Translations under genes and position numbers: made by a program
DNA from: an uncultured Nannocystaceae bacterium
GTDB taxonomy: Bacteria > Myxococcota_A > Bradymonadia > UBA7976 > UBA1532
Assembly (NCBI GenBank): GCA_964384025.1
Contig: CAYLJJ010000013.1
Coordinates: 46 to 64,045 of the forward strand
DNA: 64,000 bases
Direction of reading: 5' to 3'
In this document: positions 58,539-58,617 of the stretch, piece after piece
Layout of the letters: every line of letters begins with the position of its first letter
Position numbering within the stretch: the stretch's first letter is position 1
Notes under the pieces: model-generated
The model's database searches: none
What the model was told of the DNA's origin: nothing
What the model saw: only the letters and a program-made list of their open reading frames with translations

Positions 58539-58617
58539 GCGGTGGTAGTTCAGTCCGGTTAGAACGCTTGTCTGCCAAACAGGAGGTCATGGGTTCAAAT
58601 CCCATTCCACCGCGCCA
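58539..58617 (+). tRNA. Atypical tRNA with GCC (Gly) anticodon, G73 discriminator and one extra nucleotide
   Basis: GCGGTGG/CCACCGC acceptor; GTTC/GAAC D stem; CTTGT/ACAGG with loop CTGCCAA; ATGGG TTCAAAT CCCAT; extra T at 58606; encoded CCA. Confidence 0.8.

What the first reader, a model, noticed from the sequence alone, without database searches (positions are those of the whole stretch)
58539..58617. Chimeric tRNA: Gly anticodon on an Asp-like body with G73 and an extra base
Seen: anticodon GCC and G1-C72/C2-G71/G3-C70 are Gly-like. The D arm (GTTC AGTCCGGTTA GAAC) and G73 discriminator resemble tRNA-Asp, and an unpaired T (58606) sits between the T stem and acceptor. Established: bacterial GlyRS uses U73, while AspRS uses G73 and a GUC anticodon. 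Inference: it may be non-translational (decoy or processing signal for the upstream RNA), mischarged, or decaying.
Basis: partly seen in the sequence, partly recalled or inferred. Interest (0 to 1): 0.55.

Follow-up and report, generated by a model that had tools for sequence, protein, structure and literature searches.

The report
tRNA head of a DUF7873-linked RNA
This odd glycine-anticodon tRNA is real, expressed-looking and conserved, but it is a surplus gene that forms the last domain of a non-coding RNA cassette travelling with an uncharacterised protein (DUF7873), so it is more likely a tRNA-shaped working part of that cassette than an ordinary decoder.

Summary
Window 58539-58617 (+) is a 79-nt tRNA with anticodon GCC, G1-C72/C2-G71/G3-C70, an Asp-type D arm, G73, an encoded CCA and one extra U (58606) between the T and acceptor stems. 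The genome has a canonical tRNA-Gly(GCC, U73) and a canonical tRNA-Asp(GUC) elsewhere, so this gene is surplus. T58606 and C58575 stand in DNA contigs of two samples.

It is not decaying. The orthologue in another genus keeps GCC, G73 and CCA with compensatory stem changes: 16/72 differences, against 46% at third codon positions.

It is the 3' domain of a cassette: DUF7873 gene, repeat leader, permuted Y-RNA-like tRNA mimic, tRNA, conserved hairpin. I found this in 18 of 20 close-subfamily loci across at least four phyla. Their anticodons vary (GCC 9, GAC 3, six others once each). Three have C33, and none of the GCC ones has U73. So across the family it is probably not a decoder.

This lineage's copy has a host tRNA-Asp-like body with changes at identity positions. 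The genome's GlyRS is the alpha2 type, so glycylation remains possible.

This scan has met the DUF7873/tRNA-mimic pairing before on other DNA. The standard-order tRNA head and its anticodon turnover are what this report adds.

The parts
57418..58203 (+). DUF7873 gene (261 aa), the divergent 'RNA-linked' subfamily copy
   Evidence: Pfam PF25283, E 5e-68. It is one of two copies in the genome. The subfamily clade has 100/100 support.
58204..58400 (+). Leader RNA with AGGTTC-type six-base repeats (boundaries approximate)
   Evidence: Conserved in G005. The same kind of repeat track occurs in all subfamily loci. RNA-library contigs start at 58256 and 58325.
58401..58521 (+). Circularly permuted, anticodon-less tRNA mimic (Y-RNA-like)
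   Evidence: Rfam YrlA 23.5 bits, below the gathering score of 69. The same weak hit appears in 14 of 16 other subfamily loci and in G005.
58539..58617 (+). Standard-order tRNA: anticodon GCC, G73, encoded CCA
   Evidence: ARAGORN; Rfam tRNA 53.9 bits; cloverleaf covariation across 18 homologues.
58574..58576 (+). Anticodon GCC (C58575 = position 35)
   Evidence: Sequence. Identical in DNA contigs and in RNA-library contig X4. Conserved in G005.
58606..58606 (+). Extra U between the T stem and the 3' acceptor strand
   Evidence: An insertion found only in the window among 18 homologues. Present in DNA contigs of two samples.
58614..58617 (+). Discriminator G73 and encoded CCA
   Evidence: Sequence; the same in G005. 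Only about 7 of 44 other tRNA genes of the genome encode CCA.
58618..58656 (+). Conserved 3' hairpin (12 pairs) plus T-run; terminator-like
   Evidence: Terminator scan. The GGGCAC...GTGCCC hairpin follows every module tRNA at 0-5 nt, and 9 of its 11 modelled pairs covary.

Best explanation
The tRNA is the 3'-terminal, tRNA-shaped domain ('head') of a roughly 410-nt composite non-coding RNA encoded directly after a DUF7873 gene. The order is repeat leader, one circularly permuted tRNA mimic, this standard-order tRNA, then a conserved terminator hairpin.

Shown:
- The cassette, with a cloverleaf tRNA at this position, is conserved in a DUF7873 subfamily spread across Myxococcota, Planctomycetota, Spirochaetota and Thiomargarita.
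- The tRNA is surplus to the genome's normal Gly and Asp tRNAs.
- It is under purifying selection.
- RNA-library contigs lie on the leader and mimic and run into the tRNA.

Inferred:
- It acts through its tRNA shape and not as a codon reader. It would give the transcript a stable end that tRNA enzymes recognise. RNase P would cut at G58539, and the 3' end would be trimmed to the encoded CCA.
- It probably serves as the second tRNA-like binding surface for the DUF7873 protein or a tRNA-binding host factor. It sits where the wider family carries a second permuted mimic.
- In this lineage the body resembles the host family's tRNA-Asp. It has been changed at U35 to C, G2-C71 to C2-G71 and A3-U70 to G3-C70. 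This removes Asp identity and may allow charging with glycine as a side property.
For: (1) Surplus gene. Canonical tRNA-Gly(GCC, U73) lies on C4 and tRNA-Asp(GUC) on C23. G005 also keeps a canonical tRNA-Gly(GCC).

(2) Fixed position in a cassette. A same-strand tRNA lies 270-410 nt after the DUF7873 stop in 18 of 20 complete subfamily loci, preceded by a YrlA-like weak hit and followed at 0-5 nt by a conserved hairpin. A covariance model of tRNA+hairpin scores 95-106 bits on members and at most 69 bits on other tRNAs.

(3) Structure under selection. 98.6% of cells are paired and 27 of 32 pairs have double changes. No shuffle of 500 reaches this, and slid controls give 39-49%.

(4) No family-wide decoding identity. 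Anticodons are GCC 9, GAC 3, and GCU, CCG, CAG, CCC, CCA, CGC once each. Three have C33 in place of U33. The Leu and Ser anticodons sit on short class-I bodies. The nine GCC tRNAs have G73 (4), A73 (4) or C73 (1), never U73. Two tight protein clades each hold three different anticodons. In the Thiomargarita-type trio the T arm is 0/17 while the anticodon arm differs at 7-9/17.

(5) Place of the second mimic. Wider-family loci have two permuted mimics and then a terminator. The subfamily has one mimic and then the tRNA.

(6) Not decaying. Window against G005 shows 16/72 differences against 46% at third codon positions (P about 2.5e-5), with compensated pairs.

(7) RNA-library contigs cover 58256-58545 and 58325-58578. 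The second spans the mimic/tRNA junction by 40 nt.

(8) Precedent. RNase P cleaves the tRNA-like YrlA of M. smegmatis, which then gains CCA (PMC4201824).
Against: No experiment shows processing, protein binding or lack of aminoacylation.

This lineage's copy is the most tRNA-like in identity terms. It has the full Gly set except position 73, an intact tertiary core and an encoded CCA, and its anticodon arm is conserved against G005 (3/17 vs 46%, P 0.015). These are what one expects of a working tRNA.

GCC is kept in 9 of 18 modules. Two GCC pairs (window/G005 and L203/L204) conserve the anticodon arm, so the anticodon is not simply free to drift.

The DUF7873 fold gave no clue to RNA binding.

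RNA contigs cannot show ends or strand, and DNA carry-over in those libraries is not excluded.
Confidence: 0.55

Rival explanations
1. It is a working extra tRNA-Gly(GCC). The genome's alpha2-type GlyRS charges it despite G73, and it reads GGC/GGU. It rides on the DUF7873 cassette much as phage tRNA genes ride in phage genomes.
For: G1-C72, C2-G71, G3-C70, C35 and C36 are the published Gly determinants (PMC9976931, PMC3990555), and all are present. G10 and U16, extra Thermus determinants, are also present. The GlyRS is the alpha2 type, and the Thermus alpha2 enzyme charges both A73 and U73 tRNA-Gly (PMC3990555). A. pernix GlyRS does not need its discriminator (PMC9976931). The tertiary core is intact and CCA is encoded. 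The anticodon arm is conserved against G005. Relative to the family's tRNA-Asp, the changes fall exactly on identity positions.
Against: A canonical tRNA-Gly(GCC) already exists. All the genome's normal tRNA-Gly genes have U73, and none of the 9 GCC module tRNAs does. The extra U at the T/acceptor junction disturbs the 12-bp minihelix read by EF-Tu and RNase P. Homologous module tRNAs change anticodon among close relatives, carry C33 or lack the acceptor determinants. G73 with an alpha2 GlyRS has not been tested in any paper I could read.
Confidence: 0.2
2. It is a decoy or specificity module in a conflict system. The anticodon arm mimics a particular host tRNA, here tRNA-Gly(GCC), to bind or divert an anticodon-directed enzyme such as a nuclease, a modifying toxin or a synthetase. 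It switches target quickly between lineages.
For: In some clades the anticodon arm turns over at or above the third-position rate while the T arm is frozen. The trio shows 7-9/17 against about 26% (P 0.016-0.17), and L201/L202 shows 10/19. In phages the wider DUF7873 family sits inside tRNA arrays, with 46 of 77 viral loci having tRNAs within 2.5 kb. The window's neighbourhood holds a decayed DGR and STAND/kinase genes (scan notes).
Against: No nuclease, toxin or defence domain was found in DUF7873 or its neighbours (PADLOC, NCBIfam, PHROGs). The excess over the neutral rate is weak, and the pairs are not independent. In other pairs (window/G005, L203/L204) the arm is conserved and does not diversify. 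No close subfamily relative was found in viral contigs.
Confidence: 0.12
3. It is a tRNA-Asp whose C35 is edited to U after transcription, as in marsupial mitochondria, so that one gene supplies Asp (and perhaps Gly) decoding.
For: The body, D arm, variable loop and G73 match the family's tRNA-Asp. The marsupial mitochondrial tRNA-Asp gene carries GCC, and about half of its transcripts are edited to GUC (PMC9976931).
Against: The RNA-library contig reads GCC at 58574-58576. That is a consensus only, so a minority edited form cannot be excluded. G2-C71, an Asp determinant, has been replaced. A canonical tRNA-Asp exists. Other module tRNAs have neither Asp-like bodies nor Asp-related anticodons.
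Confidence: 0.03
4. It is a decaying duplicate, an assembly artefact, or the leftover attachment site of a mobile element.
For: The extra U is unique to this genome. The Rfam score of 53.9 bits is at the low end of the family's 52-71.5 range.
Against: Two DNA assemblies agree. The gene is under purifying selection with compensatory changes against G005. The tRNA's 3' half is not repeated in the window. Its position within the cassette is constant across phyla.
Confidence: 0.03

Closest known systems
YrlA-type bacterial Y RNAs with Ro60/Rsr (Rfam RF02553; Chen et al. 2014, PMC4201824; bioRxiv 10.1101/312249)
   Same: A non-coding RNA with a tRNA-like domain, encoded next to its presumed protein partner. 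In M. smegmatis the tRNA-like domain is cut by RNase P and receives CCA. Several Y RNAs can come from one precursor.
   Different: No TROVE/Ro60 gene was found in this 94%-complete genome. The upstream mimic scores only 23.5 bits against a gathering score of 69. The neighbouring gene is DUF7873. The element studied here is a full, standard-order tRNA with an anticodon arm, not a permuted mimic.
DUF7873-linked double tRNA-mimic RNA
   Same: The same protein family, the same repeat leader and first permuted mimic, and a terminal hairpin.
   Different: In the wider family the second head is another permuted, anticodon-less mimic. Here and in 17 related loci it is a conventional tRNA. This form was seen at 1 of 67 wider bacterial loci, as an ordinary tRNA-Met. 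It was not found as a tRNA+hairpin unit in 80 viral loci.
Marsupial mitochondrial tRNA-Asp gene with anticodon GCC (reviewed in PMC9976931)
   Same: An Asp-type tRNA body and discriminator carrying the glycine anticodon GCC.
   Different: There the anticodon is edited back to GUC and the gene is the only tRNA-Asp. Here the consensus RNA contig shows no editing, a normal tRNA-Asp exists, and the acceptor pairs 2:71 and 3:70 have also changed to the Gly type.
tRNA anticodon shifts / identity remoulding (PMC3923123)
   Same: A tRNA gene whose anticodon belongs to a different amino acid than its body, with accompanying changes at identity positions.
   Different: Described shifts yield working isoacceptors in eukaryotic genomes. 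Here the shift sits in a non-coding RNA cassette whose homologues carry many unrelated anticodons.
MALAT1/mascRNA-type tRNA-like 3' processing signals and bacterial tRNA-linked small RNAs (recalled from my own knowledge, not tested here)
   Same: A tRNA-shaped element at the 3' end of a longer non-coding transcript lets RNase P define the end of the upstream RNA.
   Different: Those elements are not full tRNAs with identity sets and CCA. No cleavage data exist for this locus.

Membership tests
Bacterial tRNA-Gly (decoding) | Anticodon NCC with C35 and C36 | tested here: met
   GCC at 58574-58576.
Bacterial tRNA-Gly (decoding) | Acceptor pairs G1-C72, C2-G71, G3-C70 | tested here: met
   GCG.../...CGC read from the sequence; determinants as listed in PMC9976931 and PMC3990555.
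Bacterial tRNA-Gly (decoding) | Discriminator U73 | tested here: not met
   G at 58614. The genome's tRNA-Gly(GCC) and tRNA-Gly(UCC) have U73.
Bacterial tRNA-Gly (decoding) | Uninterrupted 7+5 bp acceptor/T minihelix | tested here: not met
   An extra U at 58606 lies between the two stems. It is unique among 18 homologues.
Bacterial tRNA-Gly (decoding) | Aminoacylation by GlyRS and use on the ribosome | not testable with these tools
   Needs charging assays. The GlyRS is the alpha2 type, whose tolerance of G73 is unknown.
Bacterial tRNA-Asp | Anticodon GUC (G34, U35, C36) | tested here: not met
   C at position 35 (58575), in DNA and in the RNA-library contig.
Bacterial tRNA-Asp | G73 and G2-C71 | tested here: not met
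   G73 is present, but 2:71 is C-G. The family's tRNA-Asp has G2-C71.
Bacterial tRNA-Asp | Body similarity to the lineage's tRNA-Asp | tested here: met
   The only hits of the tRNA part in 24 related genomes are tRNA-Asp, at 78-84% identity. tRNA-Asp is also the closest tRNA within G000, at 74%.
YrlA / Ro60-bound Y RNA | A Ro60 (TROVE) gene nearby and a match above Rfam's gathering score | tested here: not met
   No TROVE match in G000. The upstream mimic scores 23.5 against 69 bits. The tRNA itself is not matched by this model.
DUF7873-linked composite RNA, subfamily with a standard tRNA head (defined here) | Same-strand DUF7873 gene, permuted mimic, cloverleaf tRNA, then a GGGCAC-type hairpin within 5 nt | tested here: met
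   All four parts are present in the window. The window scores 97.4 bits with model R1, within the members' 95-106 bits. 18 of 20 subfamily loci have this layout.

The most novel reading that the evidence does not exclude
A horizontally mobile protein-RNA cassette carries its own conventional tRNA as an exchangeable 'head'. The anticodon arm of that tRNA would be a fast-switching specificity module that mimics a chosen host tRNA towards a synthetase, a modification enzyme or an anticodon nuclease. In this lineage the head would have been rebuilt from the host's tRNA-Asp and retargeted to glycine identity by three changes at identity positions.
Probability: 0.15. Interest if true: 0.75.

Novelty: new variant of a known kind. 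Interest (0 to 1): 0.5.

Why it matters
tRNA genes that look 'chimeric' are usually dismissed as pseudogenes or annotated as extra isoacceptors. Here such a gene is a conserved, selected part of a non-coding RNA cassette that moves between phyla with one uncharacterised protein. That gives a concrete handle on the DUF7873 system. One of its two tRNA-shaped heads is, in this subfamily, a normal tRNA that standard tRNA biochemistry can probe: RNase P, the CCA enzyme, GlyRS and EF-Tu. It also offers a natural experiment on identity. An Asp-type body carries Gly determinants and a G73 discriminator in an organism with an alpha2 GlyRS. For annotation, such genes should not be counted in a genome's decoding set without evidence.

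Tried and rejected
- **T-box-like pairing.** I searched each of the 18 upstream RNAs for complements of the anticodon loop. No site recurs at a consistent position, and several loci have none. Rejected.
- **Single-sequence folding.** The MFE fold of the window tRNA, of a version without the extra U, and of the G005 copy does not return the cloverleaf (z -2.1, -1.5, -0.5). This is uninformative, so covariation was used instead.
- **DUF7873 function.** No informative result came from any of these:
  - PDB sequence search
  - Foldseek against PDB and BFVD
  - VIA-align wide
  - ESM Atlas features
  - NCBIfam, PADLOC and PHROGs

  The only structural neighbour is 3kdq, itself of unknown function. 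The AF2 model has pLDDT 75.
- **att-site idea.** The tRNA's 3' half is not repeated in the window.
- **Close subfamily in viral contigs.** None found. No tRNA+hairpin unit was found in 80 wider-family viral loci.
- **RNA-library cover.** No RNA contig lies on the coding region (58100-58255) or on the 3' half of the tRNA (after 58578). Contigs cannot show ends or absence, so I draw no conclusion about an own promoter, RNase P cleavage or the abundance of the mature tRNA.
- **Earlier scan note.** It says a 'true tRNA' always follows DUF7873. This holds for this subfamily but not for 67 wider bacterial loci, where I found 1.
- **Burroughs & Aravind 2016.** Named in a scan note, but the paper could not be retrieved and is not used.
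- **Not available or not run.** tRNAscan-SE isotype scores are not available here. I did not run complex prediction, because no protein-protein claim is made.

Full report
**1. The observation**

ARAGORN finds exactly one tRNA in the 64-kb window, at 58539-58617 on the + strand, and calls it Gly(GCC), 79 nt. Rfam's tRNA model scores it 53.9 bits against a gathering score of 29.

Read by hand, the layout is:
- GCGGTGG / UA / GTTC-AGTCCGGTTA-GAAC / G
- CTTGT-CTGCCAA-ACAGG / AGGTC
- ATGGG-TTCAAAT-CCCAT / T / CCACCGC / G / CCA

The anticodon GCC lies at 58574-58576. The pairs G1-C72, C2-G71 and G3-C70 are present. The D arm is Asp-like, G73 is at 58614, and an unpaired T sits at 58606 between the T stem and the acceptor strand. 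The tertiary-core nucleotides of a normal tRNA are all present. CCA is encoded, which is true of only about 7 of the genome's other 44 credible tRNA genes.

**2.

The whole genome (7.06 Mb, 252 contigs) has a canonical tRNA-Gly(GCC) with U73 on C4, a tRNA-Gly(UCC) with U73, and a canonical tRNA-Asp(GUC) on C23. So the normal glycine tRNAs do not share the odd features, and this gene is surplus.

DNA contigs of two samples match the window without a single difference across the tRNA, including T58606 and C58575. One of them may be the source assembly. The other covers 58492-58693 at depth 2 only.

**3. It is conserved, not decaying**

A genome of another genus in the same family (G005) has the whole 430-nt non-coding stretch at 75% identity. 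Its tRNA keeps GCC, G73 and CCA, and it lacks the extra U.
- Two T-stem pairs are changed compensatorily: A-U and U-A become G-C and C-G.
- One anticodon-stem pair is also compensated: C-G becomes U-A.
- The adjacent genes differ at 46% of third codon positions (dS 1.37).
- The tRNAs differ at 16 of 72 compared positions, and the anticodon arm at 3 of 17. The rough binomial P values are 2.5e-5 and 0.015.
- G005 also keeps a canonical tRNA-Gly(GCC).

**4. Where the body comes from**

In 24 related genomes, the only hits to the tRNA part were tRNA-Asp(GUC) genes, at 78-84% identity. The family's typical tRNA-Asp shares these features with the window tRNA:
- the whole D arm
- G26
- the variable loop
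- acceptor pairs 4-7
- G73

The differences fall on U35 to C, G2-C71 to C2-G71 and A3-U70 to G3-C70, plus compensated stem pairs.

Inside G000 the closest tRNA is also Asp, at 74% against 70% or less for the others. The G005 copy scores slightly better against tRNA-Gly(UCC) than against Asp. 'Chimeric Gly/Asp' is therefore a fair description of this lineage's copy.

By the published identity sets (PMC9976931), the changes remove aspartate determinants and create glycine ones.

**5. The discriminator argument needs a correction**

The genome has no GlyQ/GlyS. It has a dimeric alpha2 GlyRS (TIGR00389, 473 bits). The Thermus alpha2 enzyme charges both A73 and U73 tRNA-Gly efficiently (PMC3990555), and the A. 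pernix enzyme does not need its discriminator (PMC9976931). G73 has not been tested in anything I could read. Glycylation is therefore possible but unproven.

**6. Context: a cassette**

- The ORF ending 6 nt before the non-coding stretch (57418-58203) is a DUF7873 protein.
- Between it and the tRNA lie a repeat-rich leader and a weak YrlA (Y RNA-like) match at 58401-58521, scoring 23.5 bits against a gathering score of 69.
- The genome has no Ro60/TROVE gene.
- After the tRNA comes a 12-pair hairpin with a T-run, the only terminator-like site in the region.
- G000 and G005 each have a second, more typical DUF7873 copy elsewhere.

**7. The cassette elsewhere**

Searches with a DUF7873 alignment found a distinct subfamily, 57-70% identical to the window protein. 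It occurs in Thiomargarita, Leptospiraceae and other Spirochaetota, Planctomycetota, Myxococcota and marine metagenomes. It forms a clade with 100/100 support.
- In 18 of 20 complete loci, counting the window and G005, a same-strand tRNA lies 270-410 nt after the gene.
- That tRNA follows a YrlA-like weak hit, and a GGGCAC...GTGCCC hairpin follows it within 0-5 nt.
- All 18 score 52-71.5 bits with Rfam's tRNA model.
- On their alignment the cloverleaf and hairpin are paired in 98.6% of cells.
- 27 of 32 pairs show double compensatory changes, 0 of 500 shuffles reach any of the observed values, and slid controls give 39-49%.
- A covariance model of tRNA+hairpin scores members at 95-106 bits and every other tRNA at 69 bits or less.
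- A same-strand tRNA at this position was seen in 1 of 67 wider-family bacterial loci and in 21 of 77 viral loci. In the viral loci DUF7873 lies inside tRNA arrays.

**8. What varies and what does not**

| Feature across the 18 module tRNAs | Result |
|---|---|
| Anticodons | GCC 9; GAC 3; GCU, CCG, CAG, CCC, CCA, CGC once each |
| Position 33 | C33 in place of the universal U33 in three |
| Leu and Ser anticodons | sit on short class-I bodies |
| Discriminator of the nine GCC tRNAs | G73 (4), A73 (4), C73 (1); never U73 |
| Full G1-C72/C2-G71/G3-C70 set | only the window and G005 |

Two tight protein clades each carry three different anticodons. In the Thiomargarita-type trio the T arm is identical (0/17), while the anticodon arm differs at 7-9 of 17 positions, against about 26% at third codon positions. 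In contrast, the two GCC pairs (window/G005 and L203/L204) conserve the anticodon arm.

Across the family, then, this is a tRNA-shaped element and not a decoder. GCC is the commonest and probably the ancestral state, and it is under some constraint where it is kept.

**9. Place in the wider family**

Wider-family loci carry two circularly permuted, anticodon-less tRNA mimics followed by a terminator. Notes from this scan on other genomes say the same. The subfamily has one such mimic, and the standard-order tRNA sits where the second would be. I read the tRNA as the cassette's second 'head' in conventional topology. This is an inference from position only.

**10. Expression**

Two metatranscriptome libraries of the study that also holds the DNA yield contigs on 58256-58545 and 58325-58578. 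The second crosses the mimic/tRNA junction by 40 nt and reads GCC. So RNA-library molecules spanning the junction exist, and the consensus shows no C-to-U change at position 35. Contigs cannot give ends, strand or levels.

**11. Mechanism and verdict**

Most likely (0.55), the tRNA works through its shape. It would be a stable 3' domain recognised by tRNA enzymes, which lets RNase P and 3' trimming define the ends of the composite RNA. The precedent is M. smegmatis YrlA (PMC4201824). It would also act as a second tRNA-like surface for DUF7873 or a host tRNA-binding factor.

The rivals are:
- a working extra tRNA-Gly (0.2)
- an anticodon-specific decoy in a conflict system (0.12)
- an edited tRNA-Asp as in marsupial mitochondria (0.03)
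- decay, artefact or att remnant (0.03)

The partner protein's function stays unknown after all fold and family searches.

The DUF7873/tRNA-mimic pairing has been found repeatedly in this scan, and I found no paper that mentions DUF7873. This report adds three things: the conventional tRNA head of one subfamily, its anticodon turnover, and the Asp-to-Gly identity pattern of this lineage's copy.

Noticed in passing
window 58240-58380; also L039-L049 downstream of DUF7873: The leader between the DUF7873 gene and the mimic carries runs of six-base repeats (AGGTTC/AGGCTC/GGTTTA type) in every subfamily locus. The repeat unit changes with the GC content of the host.
   Followed up: no
L013:1180-1400 (G000 contig C95), minus strand: The genome's second, typical DUF7873 copy has two T-arm-like elements (GGTTCAAATCC and GGTTCGAATCC on the minus strand) upstream of the gene and divergent from it. 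There is no tRNA nearby. This is an inverted arrangement of gene and RNA.
   Followed up: partly
L119-L198 (IMG/VR contigs): In phage contigs the wider DUF7873 family sits inside tRNA gene arrays. 46 of 77 loci have tRNAs within 2.5 kb, some with 10-19 tRNA genes.
   Followed up: partly
L040:3561-3637 and L200:2269-2344: Two module tRNAs carry a G3-U70 wobble pair, the main alanine determinant. L200 has it together with A73, although its anticodon is CCC; L040's anticodon is GCC.
   Followed up: no
L045:2249-2321, L048:3552-3622, L049:3539-3609: Three Myxococcota module tRNAs lack G18G19 and have aberrant T loops (UGCGAU, UGGGACU). Their D arms resemble the D arm of the permuted mimic in the same locus, which suggests exchange between the two heads.
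   Followed up: no
L041:3275-3330 and L042:3275-3330: Two near-identical Spirochaetota subfamily genes are followed directly by a terminator and have lost, or never had, the whole RNA array.
   Followed up: partly
window 55337-55921 (-): A short ORF has a weak reverse-transcriptase (RVT_1) match and overlaps a GYF_2/FGE-sulfatase gene. Other notes of this scan read it as a decayed diversity-generating retroelement.
   Followed up: no
G000 contigs C1, C2, C3, C47, C88, C149: ARAGORN also calls six long or loop-less 'tRNAs' (for example Asp(atc) at 92 nt and Gly(ccc) at 99 nt) that lack T loops. They look like false positives, and I left them out of the comparisons.
   Followed up: partly
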